Shown: positions 2,135 to 16,137 of the stretch, piece by piece
Numbering within the stretch: the first letter of the stretch is position 1
Layout of the letters: every line of letters begins with the position of its first letter
Source: an uncultured Candidatus Saccharibacteria bacterium
Lineage (GTDB): Bacteria > Patescibacteriota > Minisyncoccia > Phycocordibacterales > PALSA-1337
Direction: 5' to 3'
Assembly (NCBI GenBank): GCA_964467225.1
Contig: CAYXPQ010000001.1
Coordinates: forward strand, 75,803-139,802
DNA: 64,000 bases
Made by a program: the position numbers and the translations under genes
Notes under the pieces: model-generated
What the model saw: the letters and a program-made list of their open reading frames with translations, nothing else
Database searches by the model: none
What the model was told of the DNA's origin: nothing

Positions 2135-5100
2135 ATGAAGAATATTATTAAAGTTTCTGTTTCAATATCTGTAATTTTTGTAGTTTTATTTGGTTTTAAT
2201 ATACAAATTTCAAATGCACAGACAAATTCTAATAAAGTTTTGAGTGGAGCTTGTATTTCTATAAACTCTTCTAAAACAATGAAAATTTCTTCCGGTAAAG
2301 TTTATATTAACGGAAAGGAATATGAATATACTGGGGGCGGCGGAAGTTTTCCAAGTAATAAATCATTTCCACTTTATGTAAAAACTCTTTATGGAAGTGT
2401 ATATAATCCATTGCCTGGAGAGGGTAAGGATGGTCCAGATAGTCTTAAGATTGGATATGTTACTACAGGTAAAGATAGTTTGATTACTGAAATAGTAAAT
2501 GTTTCACCATGGTGTGAGAATTATTCTTATGATATTGCAACAACAGCTACTACAAGTAAACCAGTAATAAAGGTTATTAGTCCAAATGGAGGAGAAGTTT
2601 TATATGTTGGCCAAAGTTATCCTGTAAAGTGGAGTGACAACAGTGGAGATGTAAGCAATGTATCTATTTCCCTAATAGATTACAATTCTGGAACGGAATT
2701 TAATCTATCTGGAGATGTCTCATCTAGGTCTTCAGGTGTAGATGGAACAAGCGTTTATTCACTACTAATACCGTCATATATAACAAAGAATATGACAACT
2801 ACAGGTGATGGTAACAATAAATTTAAAATTAGAATTTATTCTAAAAATGGAGCGGTAGATTCAAGTGATAACTATTTTACTGTAAGATCTACAACAACGC
2901 CATCTCTAAAAGTTATTAGTCCAAATGGTGGTGAGACACTATTAATGGAAGGATATTATCCTATAAAATGGTATGACACTAGGGATAGAAGCGATGTTAC
3001 TATATTTCTCGTTGATTACAAAAGCGGAACTGCAATACCTTTAGCTAGTAATGTATCTGTTACTGCATCAGGTATTGATGGTATAAGTACTTATACAGTC
3101 CAAATTCCAGGATATGTAGAAAGAAAGTTGGCAGTCGATACTAAGAGCTTTAAAATTAGAGTTGATTCAACTGGCGGGAGTGATTTAAGTGATGATTACA
3201 TTACTATAGCTTCTGCAACTTCTTCCAGCATAGACACCCCATGCTTTACTTTTAACAGAGACCTATCATACGGATCAGAGAACAAGGAAGTTGACTATCT
3301 AGTCAAAGCTCTACTTAAAGAAGGATCAATAAGAAATCCAAATAATCTAACTATTAAAAGTGAGAAATTTGATGAATCAGTATTAACTGGTGTAGTAGCA
3401 TTTCAAGGTAAATACGGAATACCACAAACAGGATATGTAGGACCTCTTACAAGAGCGATGTTAAATCGACTTTATGGTAATTGTAATCAGAGTGAGAATA
3501 TTTCTGCTACATTAAAGTTAATTAGCCCAAATGGTGAGTTATATAATGTTGGCTCAAGAGTTCCAATCTCATGGAATCACAATGGTAATCTAAAGAGTGT
3601 AACAATAGATATAATGACTGCTGATGGACAGAAAACATTACTTTCTCAATCATATAATGAAAATCCAGGAAGATATTCTTTCTTAGTAGCTACAGGAACA
3701 CCAGAAGGTAAGTATATGGTAAGAATAAGAACAACCAACTATTCTTCAAGTAATTATTTCTATGTGGGTAGCACAGGAAATTCTGCGACAAACTCAAAAT
3801 GTGATTTTGAGGTAAAATCACCAATAGCAAATTCTAAGGTTAACTTCCCACTGACAGTAACTGGTACTATAGATAGAAGTAAGTCAAATAATGCTGGATG
3901 TAGATGGCAAACATTTGAAGGGGTAGCTGGTACGGCCAAATTTTACGCTTATCTTACAGAAAAGAATCGTGATGGAACAATGAAAGGCTGGACATCAATA
4001 GGTGATTCAGTAATTATGAATCTAGAGAAAGTTAACTCAGATAAATCAAATTTTAATGTCAGATTTAATTTTCCGGAGGGAGGTTTCCAAATTAATAATC
4101 CAGTTAAGATTGTGTTTACAGAGGAAAATCCAGCAGCAATACGTCCAGCACTTACCTTTGAATTACCATTATACTTAGATACCTCAGGAAATTCTGCGAC
4201 AACAACTCCAAACATCTCCAAGGCTCAAATATCTGGTTCATGTGTTCTGAGTGCACCATCTGGTTATGCCATTACTTCAGGTAAATTAAAATTAAACGAT
4301 AAAGAATATTCATTTAGTGGTGGAAGAGGGTCATATTTGCCAAGTAATAGAGTAATGCCAGTATATCTATATATGCCAAGAGAGGGTTATGTGGCAAGTT
4401 ACGTATATTTGAATCCACCAGTAAATGTAGGGGTTGGAACAACTACAGCATTGAAGATTGCAACAATTGTTACAGGAGATAAAGGGGTTATAAGAAATAT
4501 TTATAATCTAAATCCTCTTTGTCAAAGTTATACAAATATCAAAGCTGAAGCAACATCAGTGCCTACAACTAATCAAACAATAAAGGTTATAAGTCCAAAT
4601 GGTGGGGAAGTGTGGCAGATAGGTAAGACATATGAATTTAGATGGAGTTCAAGTGGAATAGATAAGGTAATGATCAATCTTACAAATCAAGATAATAATT
4701 TTGGATATGGTACATTGAATGCTATTGATGCGAGAACAGGAAGGGTCACCTATACACTTCCAAATACTCTACCGGCAGGTAAATACAAAGTATTTATGGT
4801 GGATGCATCAGGTAAAACAATTACAAATGATTCAAGTGATAATTATTTCACAATAGTAAATTCAACATCAGGATATACACCAACTCCATCTACTACATAC
4901 ACTCCATATCCAAGCTATACACCTACATACTCACCAACTCCAAGTCAAACATATAATTCATACCCAACAGCAACCTACACCTCATCACCAACATACACAA
5001 CTAGCCCAACATATTCATCTACTCCAACATATACCTATACACCAAGTCCAACTTATTCATCATCACCTACAGCAACATATTCACCTAGTTATACATACAG

Positions 5101-11607: not shown

Positions 11608-11682
11608 GTTCATTAAAAAAACAAAATCAATAATAGACAATTTGATAATCAGTCTTATTGATTCGCTAAATTAATGAATAAT

Positions 11683-11710
11683 TTGACTTAATACGAAATT
11701 TTGTTAGTAT
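11683..11710 (+). promoter_or_regulatory. sigma70-like promoter TTGACT-N16-TAGTAT upstream of rpsS
   Basis: Lies in the 110-nt rplB–rpsS gap. The same hexamers occur upstream of rpsN. Confidence 0.45.
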
Positions 11711-11718
11711 AAAAAACC

Positions 11719-12066
11719 ATGTCACGATCACTTAATAAAGGACCATACGTTGAAGAGCGACTCTTGCAAAAGATAGCTGGAAAGAAACCTACTGAAACTG
11801 GGGTTATTAAGACATGGTATAGAAGAAGTCAGATTTCTCCTGAAATGGTCGGATTTATCTTCGGAGTATACAATGGGAGACAGCATGTTGATGTACTGGT
11901 CTCAGAGGATATGGTAGGACACAGATTGGGTGAATTCGCTCCTACTCGTAAATTCCTTAGACATGGAGGTAAAATGCAGAAAGAGCTTGAATTAAAGGCT
12001 AAGGAGAATGAAATGGCAGCTGCAAAATCAGCAAAGGAGGCTGCAGCAGCACCTGCTAAAAAATAA
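11719..12066 (+). CDS. rpsS: 30S ribosomal protein S19 (with Ala/Lys-rich C-terminal extension)
   Basis: S19 core GPYVEERLL...[13 protein letters not shown]. It carries an extra ~25-aa A/K/E-rich tail. Confidence 0.92.
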
Positions 12067-14401: not shown

Positions 14402-14620
14402 ATGAAAATCAAAAAGGATGACAATGTAATAGTTTTGACTGGAAAGGACAAGGGTAAGTCTGGTAAAGTTTTAAAGTCTTTCCCCAAGGAGAATAAAGTT
14501 CTAGTATCAGGAATCAATGTATTTAAGAAACACCAAAGACCAACAAAGCAAGGTCAGAAGGGACAAGTGGTAGAGAAGAGCGGTCCTATTCATGTTTCTA
14601 ATGTTGCATTAAAGAAATAA
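14402..14620 (+). CDS. rplX: 50S ribosomal protein L24 (short, KOW domain only)
   Basis: 72 aa with KOW motif [15 protein letters not shown], at the conserved position. Confidence 0.88.
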
Positions 14621-14621
14621 T

Positions 14622-15191
14622 ATGAAAACACATACAGCAAAAACTACATTTGAGATGAATAAGGAGTCTTTCAAGGCTTTGAAGGAGAAATTTGGTCTCA
14701 AAAATCCTATGCAAGCACCAATGCTTTCTAAGGTTGTTATTAGTACAGGTACTGGATCAATTAAAGACAAAAAGAAGATTGAGCTTGTTGCCGATAGACT
14801 TTCAAAAATAACAGGACAGAAGCCAGCTCCAAGATCAAGCAAGAAGTCAATCGCTTCATTCAAAGTTAGACAAGGAGATCTCGTCGGTTATCAAGTAACA
14901 CTAAGAGGTAAGAGAATGTGTGATTTTATTGATAAGCTTATTCATATAGCACTCCCAAGAACAAAGGACTTCCGTGGTATTACAAAGACTGCAGTAGATC
15001 AGATGGGTAACTACACTCTAGGAATCAAAGAGCACACAATTTTCCCTGAGACAGCAGATGAAGATCTAAAGGATGTATTCGGATTTGGTATTACAGTAGT
15101 GACAACATCAAAGAGCAAGGAACAGACATTAGCTTTCATGGAGTATCTCGGTTTCCCATTTAAGAAAGAAGAGGTAAAGAAGAGGGGGTAG
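14622..15191 (+). CDS. rplE: 50S ribosomal protein L5
   Basis: 189 aa with L5-like sequence. Confidence 0.94.
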   Translation: MKTHTAKTTFEMNKESFKALKEKFGLKNPMQAPMLSKVVISTGTGSIKDKKKIELVADRLSKITGQKPAPRSSKKSIASFKVRQGDLVGYQVTLRGKRMCDFIDKLIHIALPRTKDFRGITKTAVDQMGNYTLGIKEHTIFPETADEDLKDVFGFGITVVTTSKSKEQTLAFMEYLGFPFKKEEVKKRG

Positions 15192-15194
15192 GTT

Positions 15195-15224
15195 TGACTA
15201 GAAAAATTACATTTGTTAATATTT
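15195..15224 (+). promoter_or_regulatory. sigma70-like promoter TTGACT-N17-TAATAT immediately after rplE
   Basis: Near-consensus hexamers. It directs plus-strand transcription into a ~60-nt unit that ends at a hairpin and T7 run. Confidence 0.45.
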
Positions 15225-15228
15225 GATC

Positions 15229-15292
15229 ATGAAAGAAACTTTCGGCCGTGGTTTATATACCACACTTGGCGGAGGGTTTTTTTCTTTTAATC
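15229..15292 (+). ncRNA. candidate small RNA / terminator module (could also encode a 25-aa peptide MKETFGRGLYTTLGGGFFSFNLFL)
   Basis: Bounded by the promoter at 15195 and the hairpin GTGGT-ttatat-ACCAC plus gagggTTTTTTTc. It is convergent with the minus-strand gene 15287..15706. Confidence 0.3.
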
Positions 15293-15706
15293 TATTTCTG
15301 TAGGAAATACTGACATTAAATGCTTATTTCTGTTCCTTATATTCTCAGTTATTTGAATACAAAATAGTTCTCCACTTTTTGTTTTTCCGAGAAACCTATG
15401 TAATTTTTCAGAAGATTTATTTGGATTTATTTTTGAAATAGGTTCAATACTCGAATTTTTAATTAAATCCAGAGCACATTCATAATACCTTAATCTTCGA
15501 GTGCGATCATTTGGATTTTTTGTTCTGATATGATCCCAAAAATAGTCAAGAAATATTTTATCCTTATTAAAGTATTTGGATCTAATATAAGGTCTTCTTT
15601 TAGTTTTTGAACATAGTTTTTTATAAATTGATAATGCTTGCGGGTATACATCTTTATAACTTGTACCAGATAACTTTTTAATTTTTGCTTCGTAAAATTT
15701 CCTCAT
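15287..15706 (-). CDS. hypothetical small basic protein encoded antisense within the spc ribosomal operon
   Basis: 139-aa ORF (420 nt without a stop) in AT-rich DNA. It is very K/R-rich. An upstream perfect -35 TTGACA is present on the minus strand near 15752–15757. No family could be recognised. Confidence 0.55.
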   Translation of the reverse strand: MRKFYEAKIKKLSGTSYKDVYPQALSIYKKLCSKTKRRPYIRSKYFNKDKIFLDYFWDHIRTKNPNDRTRRLRYYECALDLIKNSSIEPISKINPNKSSEKLHRFLGKTKSGELFCIQITENIRNRNKHLMSVFPTEID

Positions 15707-15814
15707 TCACTAACCATAACAAAAACACTATTAAGAAAAGCTTAAGAAAAGTGTCAAAAAACAGCATTGGGAAATGGAGGGGTGAGGGTGTCTACATTTA
15801 TTTTATTGAGTAGT

Positions 15815-15843
15815 TTGACTTATTTTTGGCTATTTGATAGTAT
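15815..15843 (+). promoter_or_regulatory. sigma70-like promoter TTGACT-N17-TAGTAT upstream of rpsN
   Basis: Lies in the 245-nt non-coding region before rpsN. It shares its hexamers with the rpsS promoter. Confidence 0.45.
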
Positions 15844-15951
15844 AACTCCACGTTCTAGAAAACAAAGAAATACAAGGAATTAGCGACTTGAAGCATTAAC
15901 CCAGCGAAAACAATAGGGTGAAGCTAACTAGTCCTCATTTTTATTTAAAAT

Positions 15952-16137
15952 ATGGCAAAGACATCAGTAAAAGCACGAGCAGCAAAGACCCCTAAATTCA
16001 AATCAAGGGTAGTTAGACGATGCTTCCGATGCGGAAGAAAGAATGGATATATGAGGGATTTTGATTTGTGCCGTATTTGTTTCCGAGAGTTTGCTAACGA
16101 AGGAGTTATTCCAGGAATAAAGAAATCATCATGGTAA
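15952..16137 (+). CDS. rpsN: 30S ribosomal protein S14 type Z (zinc-binding)
   Basis: 61 aa with C..C...C..C motif CFRCGRKNGYMRDFDLCRIC. Confidence 0.93.
   Translation: MAKTSVKARAAKTPKFKSRVVRRCFRCGRKNGYMRDFDLCRICFREFANEGVIPGIKKSSW

What the first reader, a model, noticed from the sequence alone, without database searches (positions are those of the whole stretch)
15195..15292. Promoter-to-terminator mini-unit: candidate sRNA, or a 25-aa peptide, antisense-proximal to the inserted gene
The promoter TTGACT-N17-TAATAT is followed ~30 nt later by the hairpin GTGGT-ttatat-ACCAC and gagggTTTTTTT. This defines a ~60-nt transcript. It could alternatively be read as the peptide MKETFGRGLYTTLGGGFFSFNLFL, whose 3' codons are the terminator T-run, which usually signals an RNA rather than a peptide. 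Its 3' end abuts the stop of the convergent gene. This geometry is typical of type I toxin–antitoxin or cis-antisense pairs.
Basis: inference. Interest (0 to 1): 0.5.

Follow-up and report, generated by a model that had tools for sequence, protein, structure and literature searches.

The report
Small antisense RNA guarding toxin-like gene
The promoter-hairpin unit is a conserved small RNA gene, not a peptide, that always travels with a mobile toxin-like gene in Patescibacteria (CPR bacteria), so the pair looks like an undescribed RNA-controlled toxin-antitoxin module.

Summary
The promoter is TTGACT (15194-15199), a 17-nt spacer, and a TG-extended TAATAT (15217-15222). It fires straight into one long imperfect hairpin (15231-84, 21 bp, -26.7 kcal/mol, z -6.5) ending in a U-run that abuts the stop of the convergent 139-aa gene "X139".

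The window is the ribosomal-protein operon of a Patescibacteria (CPR) bacterium, and the unit sits between rplE and rpsN.

- **Linkage:** X139 homologues occur in at least 13 unrelated gene neighbourhoods across CPR lineages. In all 18 distinct copies examined, the same convergent promoter and hairpin follow the stop codon.
- **RNA, not peptide:** the stem covaries (9 of 19 pairs, 0/500 shuffles). The start codon and reading frame are not conserved.
- **Not catalogued:** no Rfam or Pfam family matches.
- **X139 fold:** the model is confident (pLDDT 96). It weakly resembles RelE/BECR RNase toxins and domains of phage polyvalent proteins. There is no conserved protein neighbour.
- **Orphan RNA:** in one relative X139 is deleted but the RNA gene survives.

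Best reading: an RNA-antitoxin module sharing a bidirectional terminator, most likely cis-antisense (type I-like), possibly protein-binding (type III-like). Transcription and toxicity are untested.

The parts
15194..15199 (+). -35 hexamer TTGACT of the small-RNA promoter. It starts 2 nt after the rplE stop codon (15189-91).
   Evidence: TTGA is invariant in 17 aligned instances.
15214..15222 (+). TG-extended -10 (TGtTAATAT); the -10 hexamer is 15217-15222.
   Evidence: T-A...T is invariant and the upstream TTTG nearly so. The spacer is 16-18 nt in 15/15 instances.
15229..15288 (+). Predicted small RNA of about 55-60 nt. The inferred start is near 15229, 7 nt after the -10. The hairpin is 15231-15284. 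The U-run is 15277-15283 plus 15285-15288.
   Evidence: Fold of -26.7 kcal/mol, z -6.45. Covariance-model hit of 85.3 bits on the + strand only. Covariation: 95.8% of cells paired, 9/19 pairs with double changes, 0/500 shuffles. The transcript itself is not shown.
15244..15271 (+). Conserved core of the RNA: invariant G15244.G15271 mismatch, flanking C-G/G-C pairs, apical stem GUGGU/ACCAC (15248-52 / 15259-63), loop UUAUAU and a 3' bulge that starts with an invariant A (15264).
   Evidence: Invariant columns. The apical stem covaries: GUGG/CCAC versus GCAG/CUGC, GGGAG/CUCC and GUAG/CUAC.
15287..15706 (-). X139: a 139-aa basic protein of an uncharacterised CPR family and the partner of the RNA. 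It is a putative BECR/RelE-like nuclease toxin.
15728..15757 (-). Candidate X139 promoter: TTGACA (15757-15752), an 18-nt spacer, then TAATAG (15733-15728). The spacer holds a tandem 11-nt repeat (15731-15752).
   Evidence: Read from the sequence. Homology with the modules in L085 and L090 starts here, about 50 nt upstream of the ATG. In those two the -35 is poor. This part is inference only.
15192..15760 (.). Approximate extent of the inserted two-gene module between the rplE stop and the ancestral rpsN promoter/leader.
   Evidence: Comparison with insertion-free relatives such as L017 and L022, and with the same module in other contexts.

Best explanation
The feature is the RNA gene of a compact, mobile two-gene module found in Patescibacteria (CPR bacteria).

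**Proposed mechanism**
- A near-consensus sigma-70 promoter with an extended -10 starts transcription at the foot of a long imperfect hairpin. That hairpin is also the RNA's own intrinsic terminator. The product would be a roughly 55-60-nt RNA that is all stem-loop plus a U-tail.
- The element has the A-tract / GC-rich stem / U-tract anatomy of a bidirectional terminator. It lies 0-15 nt past the stop codon of the convergent gene X139.
- The X139 mRNA must therefore end in the exact complement of the small RNA.
- I propose that the RNA acts as an antitoxin-type repressor of X139, a putative BECR/RelE-like RNase toxin with no protein antitoxin.
- The RNA would be made constitutively and abundantly. 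It would pair with the 3' end of the scarce X139 mRNA, starting by loop-loop contact of the two complementary hairpins. The duplex would be cut, for example by RNase III, removing the protective 3' hairpin and destabilising the message. This is how RatA/txpA, SR4/bsrG and the par RNA I/RNA II pair work.
- The invariant G.G mismatch and bulged A suggest that the RNA is also recognised by a protein, possibly X139 itself.

**Shown:** the sequence anatomy, conservation, covariation, strict linkage to X139, absence of a coding frame, and absence of a protein partner.

**Inferred:** transcription, toxicity of X139, and both pairing mechanisms.
For: 1. **Linkage.** 18 distinct X139 copies in at least 13 unrelated neighbourhoods all carry the convergent promoter and hairpin directly after the stop. 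The neighbours include L5, L20, an S1-domain gene, S20/ClpP, ComEC, an ABC transporter, a YafQ toxin island and radical SAM. The model hits nothing else in 92 loci except a remnant site.
2. **RNA structure.** 95.8% of cells are paired and 9/19 pairs have compensatory changes. 0/500 shuffles reach this, and slid controls give 51-66%.
3. **Strand bias.** The RNA strand folds better than the X139-sense strand in 13/15 instances because of G-U pairs. The model scores 85 bits against 18 bits.
4. **Promoter.** TTGA, TA...T and the TG extension are invariant. The -10 ends 3-8 nt before the first paired base in 15/15 instances.
5. **Not a peptide**.
6. **X139 is toxin-like.**
   - BFVD hits are polyvalent-protein and MuF-C domains.
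   - Arg, Lys, His and Glu residues are invariant.
   - No neighbouring protein is conserved.
   - The same L5|S14 gap holds MazF/PemK, PBECR1 and ORF6N genes in relatives.
   - The domain is fused to HNH-STAND NTPases.
7. **Orphan RNA.** L032 has lost X139 but keeps an intact promoter and RNA at 75 bits. This is the order of loss expected for an antitoxin.
8. **Precedent.** The convergent, shared-terminator geometry is that of known 3'-overlapping type I systems (PMC8167048).
Against: - No expression data exist, so neither RNA is shown to be made.
- The overlap covers only the 3' UTR, not the coding region or the ribosome-binding site.
- The RNA has no significant complementarity to the X139 translation start (z between -1.8 and +1.1).
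- Two very stable complementary hairpins pair slowly unless their loops kiss.
- Toxicity is untested.
- Invariant unpaired nucleotides are not needed for pure cis-antisense action and point to the protein-binding rival.
Confidence: 0.45

Rival explanations
1. Protein-binding RNA antitoxin (type III-like). The hairpin RNA binds X139 protein directly and keeps it inactive, and decay of the short RNA releases the nuclease. The convergent position would only reflect compact packing and terminator sharing.
For: - The G.G mismatch, its flanking pairs, the bulged A and often the loop UUUAUAYA are invariant from Paceibacteria to Peregrinibacteria and Microgenomates, at about 50% protein identity. A cis-antisense RNA needs no fixed sequence.
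- Structure is selected on the RNA strand.
- X139 is very basic, with an invariant KRRPYxRS patch, and has a nuclease-like fold.
- No protein partner exists.
Against: - Known type III antitoxins are tandem repeats upstream of the toxin on the same strand. Here there is a single hairpin on the opposite strand.
- The abutting convergent geometry is kept in 18/18 cases. A freely diffusing protein ligand would not require that.
- No binding test is possible with these tools.
Confidence: 0.22
2. Insulator only. The hairpin is the bidirectional terminator of the mobile X139 cassette. The promoter merely loads polymerase against incoming transcription, or is a relic of resident promoters, and the short RNA has no function of its own.
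For: - The anatomy is that of a bidirectional terminator, with A-tract, GC-rich stem and U-tract.
- The cassette often lands directly behind highly expressed genes (L5, L20, S20), where read-through would run antisense into X139.
- In this clade promoters commonly follow stop codons directly, and a terminator plus promoter already separate rplE from rpsN in insertion-free relatives.
Against: - A terminator needs no promoter, yet the -35, the extended -10 and their exact distance to the stem are conserved in every context. This includes sites with no upstream convergent gene (L091, L098, L105, L109).
- The invariant mismatch and bulge are unnecessary for termination.
- The promoter and RNA persist after loss of X139 in L032.
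Confidence: 0.15
3. Leaderless mini-gene for a 24-aa peptide (MKETFGRGLYTTLGGGFFSFNLFL).
For: The ATG at 15229 lies 7 nt after the -10, which is a leaderless geometry. An ORF runs 15229-15303.
Against: - The start codon is absent or followed at once by a stop in L013 (ATA), L018 (ACG), L082/L101 (CTG), L098 (ATA), L095 (ATG-TAA) and L092.
- Length differences of -1, -2, +1, +4 and +7 nt shift the frame.
- Substitutions are compensatory in the stem, not synonymous.
Confidence: 0.02
4. DNA-level recombination or mobility site, such as an attC-like, REP-like or IS200-like hairpin used to move the X139 cassette.
For: The X139 cassette is clearly mobile and lands at many sites, often exactly at a stop codon. 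The element is an imperfect palindrome with extrahelical bases.
Against: - No integrase or transposase is linked.
- X139 lacks HUH and tyrosine motifs.
- There is one copy per module and none at the other end.
- No flanking inverted or direct repeats are present.
- The attC core sites (RYYYAAC / GTTRRRY) are absent, read from the sequence.
- The conserved promoter and G-U strand bias indicate RNA-level selection.
Confidence: 0.05

Closest known systems
par locus of Enterococcus faecalis pAD1 (RNA I/Fst and RNA II), a type I toxin-antitoxin
   Same: Toxin mRNA and a roughly 65-nt antitoxin RNA are transcribed convergently and share one bidirectional intrinsic terminator, which is one of the pairing regions (PMC8167048). 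The RNA promoter is strong and the toxin promoter weak.
   Different: Fst is a 33-aa membrane peptide, whereas X139 is a 139-aa basic soluble protein. RNA II also pairs with 5' direct repeats to block translation, and no 5' complementarity was found here. The sequences are unrelated and there is no Rfam match.
txpA/RatA, bsrG/SR4 and bsrE/SR5 of Bacillus subtilis (3'-overlapping type I systems)
   Same: The cis-antisense RNA overlaps the 3' end of the toxin mRNA, and the duplex triggers RNase III-dependent decay (PMC8167048).
   Different: Those RNAs are 180-220 nt and overlap 75-120 nt including coding sequence. Here the RNA is only the terminator hairpin and stops at the stop codon. Their toxins are small hydrophobic peptides.
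SymE/SymR and RalR/RalA of E. coli (type I systems with nuclease toxins)
   Same: They show that an RNA antitoxin can control a soluble nuclease-type toxin rather than a membrane peptide (PMC8167048).
   Different: SymR overlaps the 5' UTR and start of symE, and RalA acts in trans with Hfq. SymE has an AbrB-like fold, not a BECR-like one.
ToxIN, CptIN and TenpIN (type III toxin-antitoxins)
   Same: A protein endoRNase toxin is neutralised by a small structured RNA with no protein antitoxin. A labile RNA senses transcription shut-off.
   Different: The type III antitoxin is an array of tandem repeats upstream on the same strand and is processed by the toxin. Here there is one hairpin with its own promoter on the opposite strand. 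No PADLOC or Pfam match to those toxins was found.
RelE/ParE-superfamily (BECR fold) toxins and the PBECR domains of phage polyvalent proteins
   Same: These are the best structural neighbours of the X139 model. The layout is helices followed by a 3-4-stranded antiparallel sheet, with invariant Arg, Lys, His and Glu residues.
   Different: No sequence-profile similarity was found. X139 carries an extra N-terminal helix and hairpin. These toxins pair with protein antitoxins or immunity proteins, and none is present here. Neither of the two recent surveys checked (one of RelE/ParE-superfamily toxins, one of BECR RNases) mentions an RNA antitoxin for these toxins.

Membership tests
Type I toxin-antitoxin system | The antitoxin is a small RNA gene with its own promoter, encoded antisense to or overlapping the toxin transcription unit. 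| tested here: met
   A conserved promoter and terminator hairpin lie convergent to X139 and end 0-15 nt from its stop in 18/18 instances. This holds at the sequence level only.
Type I toxin-antitoxin system | The toxin is a small (usually under 60 aa) hydrophobic membrane peptide. | tested here: not met
   X139 is 139 aa, Lys/Arg-rich and predicted as a globular alpha/beta protein. SymE and RalR are accepted exceptions.
Type I toxin-antitoxin system | RNA-RNA pairing blocks translation or triggers decay of the toxin mRNA. | not testable with these tools
   Full complementarity of the two 3' ends follows from the geometry. No pairing to the translation start was found. Transcripts and decay need experiments.
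Type III toxin-antitoxin system | The antitoxin is an array of tandem RNA repeats upstream of the toxin on the same strand, separated from it by a terminator. | tested here: not met
   There is a single hairpin on the opposite strand, one model hit in the window, and no repeats of it.
Type III toxin-antitoxin system | The toxin belongs to the ToxN, CptN or TenpN endoRNase families and binds its RNA. | tested here: not met
   No Pfam or PADLOC match. Structural neighbours are RelE-like, not ToxN/Kid-like. Binding is not testable here.
RelE/ParE (BECR-fold) toxin superfamily, including PBECR | BECR fold. | tested here: inconclusive
RelE/ParE (BECR-fold) toxin superfamily, including PBECR | Sequence-profile match to a member family. 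| tested here: not met
   No Pfam family at E up to 1. No PDB sequence at E up to 10. hhalign against a PBECR1 protein gives probability 0.3%.
RelE/ParE (BECR-fold) toxin superfamily, including PBECR | An adjacent co-transcribed protein antitoxin or immunity gene. | tested here: not met
   Neighbours differ in every context and are unrelated to each other.
Intrinsic (bidirectional) transcription terminator | A GC-rich stem-loop followed directly by a U-run, mirrored by a 5' A-tract. | tested here: met
   The stem ending in GAGGG is followed by U7CU4, and the 5' arm GAAAGAAA is the mirror A-tract. The simple scan misses it because of the bulge and mismatch. Termination itself is untested.
Any Rfam 15 RNA family | A score at or above the family gathering threshold. 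| tested here: not met
   The best hit is ctRNA_p42d at 16.4 bits against a threshold of 50, E 6.8. Nothing but tRNAs appears in 13 related loci.
Small protein-coding gene | Conserved start codon and reading frame. | tested here: not met
   The start codon is lost in at least 6 lineages and frame-shifting indels occur.
Integron attC / REP / IS200-type DNA hairpin | Core recombination sites, a linked recombinase, and multiple or paired copies. | tested here: not met
   No RYYYAAC/GTTRRRY cores (read from the sequence). No recombinase in any neighbourhood. A single copy per module.

The most novel reading that the evidence does not exclude
This would be the first RNA-neutralised toxin of the BECR/RelE-like fold class and the first RNA-based toxin-antitoxin or defence family specific to CPR/Patescibacteria. 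A roughly 55-nt hairpin RNA would act at two levels. It would be antisense to the toxin mRNA 3' end through a shared bidirectional terminator, and it would bind the toxin protein directly through its invariant G.G/bulged-A core. That makes it a type I/III hybrid. Because it depends on a strong constitutive promoter and a short-lived RNA, it would sense transcription shut-off, for example by phage. The related domain at the C-terminus of HNH-STAND NTPases would tie the family to antiviral defence.
Probability: 0.2. Interest if true: 0.8.

Novelty: new variant of a known kind. Interest (0 to 1): 0.62.

Why it matters
CPR/Patescibacteria are a large, mostly uncultured part of bacterial diversity with tiny genomes. 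Almost nothing is known about their small RNAs or their toxin-antitoxin and defence repertoire.

- **What it would add:** a family of about 300 protein clusters that always carries its own convergent small RNA would add an RNA-antitoxin module with a new toxin fold class and a new minimal RNA.
- **Practical use:** it gives an annotatable RNA family (covariance model R1) and protein family for CPR genomes.
- **Local genome biology:** it explains why a foreign gene can sit inside the otherwise invariant rplE-rpsN junction. The module brings its own terminator, and the site already carries a terminator and promoter in relatives.
- **Testability:** the system is about 570 bp and can be tested directly in E. 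coli.

Tried and rejected
- **Peptide reading:** rejected. The start codon and frame are not conserved.
- **Known RNA family:** nothing in Rfam, using an E-value scan of the window region and a gathering scan of 13 loci.
- **Known protein family for X139:**
  - Pfam, NCBIfam, PHROGs and PADLOC give nothing. One PycTIR hit at E 0.0045 on one homologue is treated as noise.
  - PDB sequence profiles give nothing.
  - Foldseek on the PDB gives nothing.
  - afdb50 was unavailable.
- **Relic of the ancestral rpsN promoter:** this was my first idea and I rejected it. The same promoter and hairpin accompany X139 in at least 13 unrelated contexts.
- **Trans pairing of the RNA with the X139 translation start:** no better than shuffles.
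- **Extra copies of the hairpin (REP-like):** one hit in 64 kb; the other hits are generic terminators below 18 bits.
- **Flanking inverted or direct repeats marking a transposon:** none convincing. The similarity GTAG(G)TTTGACT at 15188 and 15809 is a stop codon plus a promoter, not a clear target duplication.
- **Phage origin:** no relative in IMG/VR.
- **Conserved protein partner:** none.
- **Homology of X139 to the unrelated 123-aa gene in the analogous L021 arrangement, or to a PBECR1 protein:** hhalign negative.
- **Literature:** the held library returned no paper that links CPR/Patescibacteria to RNA-antitoxin systems, and the two BECR/RelE surveys I searched for the terms do not mention an RNA antitoxin for these toxins.
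- **Limit of the metagenome scan:** the X139 protein query returned only 4 loci because single-protein queries reach close relatives only.

Full report
**1. Setting**

The window is low-GC DNA from a Patescibacteria (CPR) bacterium of the Paceibacteria/Taylorbacteria type. The closest L5 proteins (98-84% identity) come from such MAGs.

The finding lies in the S10-spc ribosomal-protein cluster:
- rplX at 14402-14620
- rplE (L5) at 14622-15191
- the feature under study
- a convergent 139-aa ORF at 15287-15706, called X139 here
- a second promoter at 15815-15843
- rpsN (zinc-type S14) at 15952-16137, followed by rpsH

**2. The observation**

The promoter is TTGACT at 15194-15199, a 17-nt spacer, and TAATAT at 15217-15222 with a TG extension at 15214-15.

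- a 13-bp lower stem, GAAAGAAACUUUC paired with GAGGGUUUUUUUC
- a G.G mismatch
- GCC/GGC
- a four-base 3' bulge
- the apical stem and a six-base loop

Its energy is -26.7 kcal/mol against -10.3 +/- 2.6 for shuffles (z -6.45). On the opposite strand it is only -15.9 kcal/mol, because three G-U pairs become A.C mismatches.

The first paired base is 8 nt after the -10, where transcription should start. The U-run is the 3' arm of the stem and stops 3 nt before the X139 stop codon. The predicted RNA is therefore a bare stem-loop with a U-tail, about 55-60 nt long.

Inside the window the promoter match alone is not better than chance (51 matches against 43 expected). The simple terminator scan misses the site.

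**3. The element travels with X139**

X139 has 183 homologues in the word-indexed search and about 301 clusters at 50% identity in the exhaustive search. Nearly all are stand-alone proteins of 135-145 aa. All named sources are CPR lineages: Parcubacteria, Portnoybacteria, Peregrinibacteria and Microgenomates.

I fetched DNA around 13 homologues and found further copies in three of the L5 loci. The neighbours are different each time:

| Context |
|---|
| L5 / S14 |
| ABC transporter / unknown gene |
| TruB / S1-domain protein |
| Acetyltransferase / EamA, with two tandem copies |
| A YafQ toxin island |
| Radical SAM / DsbD |
| Unknown genes |
| Type II secretion genes and a tRNA |
| Methyltransferase / L20-L35-IF3 |
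| S20 / ClpP |
| Epimerase / ComEC |
| Zip / PLD |

In all 18 distinct copies the X139 stop is followed within 0-15 nt, on the opposite strand, by the same hairpin. A TTGA(C/T)N - N16-18 - TAnnnT promoter precedes it.

In the 17-sequence alignment the -35 TTGA, the -10 T-A...T and most of the upstream TTTG are invariant. The -10 ends 3-8 nt before the first paired base in 15/15 instances.

My first idea was that the promoter is the old rpsN promoter stranded by an insertion. This evidence refutes it. The promoter and hairpin belong to the inserted module. The promoter at 15815 is the one orthologous to the rpsN promoter of insertion-free relatives.

**4. It is an RNA, not a peptide or a DNA site**

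- **Covariation.** RNAalifold recovers the same structure, and 9 of 19 pairs have compensatory double changes. On the model-based alignment 95.8% of cells pair. None of 500 shuffles reaches the observed pairing, number of covarying pairs or covariation score. Sliding the partners by 1-3 columns drops pairing to 51-66%.
- **Apical stem.** It switches between GUGG/CCAC, GCAG/CUGC, GGGAG/CUCC and GUAG/CUAC. One lower-stem pair switches between A-U and G-C.
- **Strand.** The RNA strand is more stable than the X139-sense strand in 13/15 instances. The covariance model R1 scores 85.3 bits on the + strand and 17.7 on the - strand.
- **Copy number.** R1 finds no other copy in 64 kb. In 92 other loci it hits only next to X139 or next to an X139 remnant.
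- **Coding.** The ATG at 15229 becomes ATA, ACG, CTG or ATG-TAA in relatives. Indels of 1, 2, 4 and 7 nt break the frame.
- **Databases.** No Rfam family matches.
- **DNA-site readings.** There are no attC cores, no paired copies and no linked recombinase.

**5. What X139 is**

No Pfam, NCBIfam, PHROG, PADLOC or PDB-sequence match exists.

The AlphaFold model is confident (pLDDT 96, pTM 0.89). It has a long helix, a beta-hairpin, three short helices and a four-stranded antiparallel sheet.

Structural searches gave these results:
- Foldseek on the PDB finds nothing significant.
- Foldseek on BFVD finds domains of phage polyvalent, MuF-C and nuclease proteins (E 3e-4 to 2e-3, TM 0.5-0.6). That is the protein class in which the PBECR nucleases were defined (PMC5512222).

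The fold assignment (BECR-like RNase) is therefore a lead, not a proof.

Other supporting points:
- R37, R42, K50, H59, R71 and E100 are invariant.
- No conserved protein neighbour exists.
- The distribution is patchy and mobile.
- One copy sits in a YafQ toxin island.
- In relatives the same L5|S14 gap holds PemK/MazF toxins, a PBECR1 nuclease and ORF6N proteins.
- An X139-like domain forms the C-terminus of HNH-STAND (NACHT/NB-ARC) NTPases. There H59 and the KRR patch are lost.
- In L032 the X139 gene is deleted down to its last ten or so codons, while the promoter and RNA are intact at 75 bits. This is the order of loss expected if the RNA is the antidote.

**6. Mechanism**

The element has the anatomy of a bidirectional intrinsic terminator: A-tract, GC-rich stem, U-tract. 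It is the only terminator candidate downstream of X139. The X139 mRNA should therefore end in the exact complement of the small RNA.

A near-consensus extended -10 promoter drives the RNA. The X139 promoter is weak: an 18-nt spacer here, and a poor -35 in L085 and L090.

This design matches 3'-overlapping type I systems. In par, RNA I and RNA II share a bidirectional terminator. In RatA/txpA and SR4/bsrG, the duplex leads to RNase III-dependent decay (PMC8167048).

I rank the readings as follows:

| Reading | Probability | Main reason |
|---|---|---|
| Cis-antisense control | 0.45 | The abutting convergent geometry is kept in 18/18 cases |
| Protein-binding, type III-like | 0.22 | The invariant G.G mismatch, flanking pairs and bulged A are not needed for antisense action or termination |
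| Pure insulator | 0.15 | Fits the terminator anatomy but does not explain the conserved promoter or the invariant unpaired bases |

The first two could both be true. No pairing to the X139 translation start was found. All functional steps are inferred: transcription, toxicity and pairing.

**7. Comparison and novelty**

- **Works like:** a type I toxin-antitoxin of the par or RatA kind.
- **Fails as a type I member:** the toxin is not a small hydrophobic peptide.
- **Fails as a type III member:** there is no repeat array, and the RNA is on the wrong strand and side of the toxin gene.
- **Fails as a type II RelBE member:** there is no protein antitoxin and no profile match.
- **Databases and literature:** neither the RNA nor the protein is in Rfam or Pfam. 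I found no paper describing them. Two recent surveys, one of RelE/ParE-superfamily toxins and one of BECR RNases, do not mention RNA antitoxins or CPR members.

I rate it a new variant of a known kind: an RNA-antitoxin module with a new toxin family, a minimal RNA and a new host clade.

**8. Why the module sits here**

In this clade the rplE-rpsN junction already carries a terminator and/or promoter. Its length varies from 21 nt to more than 3 kb, with many different inserts. It is therefore a permissive landing site.

In the window the module's hairpin also terminates transcripts coming from rplE. The promoter at 15815 restarts transcription for rpsN.

Noticed in passing
window 15881-15939 (+); homologous sites upstream of rpsN in L002, L004, L005, L007, L010-L012, L014-L018, L020-L034, L036, L041, L045, L048, L049, L054 and L066: A conserved 5'-leader structure lies between the rpsN promoter and the rpsN-rpsH genes. 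It reads GCGAUUGGAAGC - variable hairpin - AGCUAACCAAUCC, with P1 GAUUGG/CCAAUC, P2 AGC/GCU and a covarying distal stem. 7 of 12 pairs show double changes. There is no Rfam match. It is a candidate ribosomal-protein autoregulatory leader, perhaps for S8 or S14, in Paceibacteria.
   Followed up: partly
L001-L080, region between rplE and rpsN (window 15192-15951): The L5|S14 junction is an insertion hot spot in this clade. The gap ranges from 21 nt to more than 3 kb. Inserts include ORF6N proteins (L007, L008, L012, L066), PemK/MazF toxins (L025, L041), a PBECR1 nuclease (L027), a methyltransferase (L030) and many unknowns. The closest relative, L001 (98% L5 identity), carries a different insert.
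   Followed up: partly
L021:3561-4100: An analogous but unrelated arrangement lies directly after rplE. A promoter TTGACA-N17-TAAGAT is followed by about 100 nt that end in the terminator CAACCCCTTCGGGGGTTTTGTGTTTT. This abuts the stop of a convergent 123-aa ORF with no Pfam family and no similarity to X139. Convergent small-RNA/small-protein pairs may be a wider theme in these genomes.
   Followed up: partly
proteins P0168 (685 aa), P0201 (736 aa), P0217 (299 aa): An X139-like domain forms the C-terminus of STAND NTPases (NACHT/NB-ARC/AAA_16). P0168 also has an N-terminal HNH nuclease. In these fusions the invariant His59 and the KRR patch are replaced, which suggests an inactivated, sensor-like copy in an Avs-type defence protein.
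   Followed up: partly
L032:3567-3720: This is an orphan RNA gene. The promoter and hairpin are intact (75 bits), but X139 is reduced to its last ten or so codons, and the rpsN promoter and leader follow directly.
   Followed up: yes
L091:1249-1770 and 2501-3025: Two tandem X139 modules sit in one Peregrinibacteria contig. The proteins are 62% identical. Each has its own promoter and hairpin, with different lower-stem sequences but the same core.
   Followed up: partly
window 11682-11721 (+): A third promoter of the same type (TTTGACT, TG-extended TAGTAT) ends only 8 nt before the ATG of the gene at 11719, in the 111-nt gap after the 286-aa gene. This is a leaderless-mRNA geometry inside the ribosomal-protein cluster.
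   Followed up: no
window 15731-15752 (-): A tandem 11-nt repeat (CTTTTCTTAAG / CTTTTCTTAAT in X139 sense) lies inside the spacer of the candidate X139 promoter. It is identical in L085 and recognisable in L090, L101 and L102. It may be an operator.
   Followed up: no
window 15189-15199; L013, L032, L085, L088, L102 at the equivalent site: In several independent contexts the -35 box of the RNA promoter begins 0-2 nt after the stop codon of the upstream host gene (TAG/TAA followed by TTGAC). This may reflect extreme compaction or a preferred insertion point.
   Followed up: no
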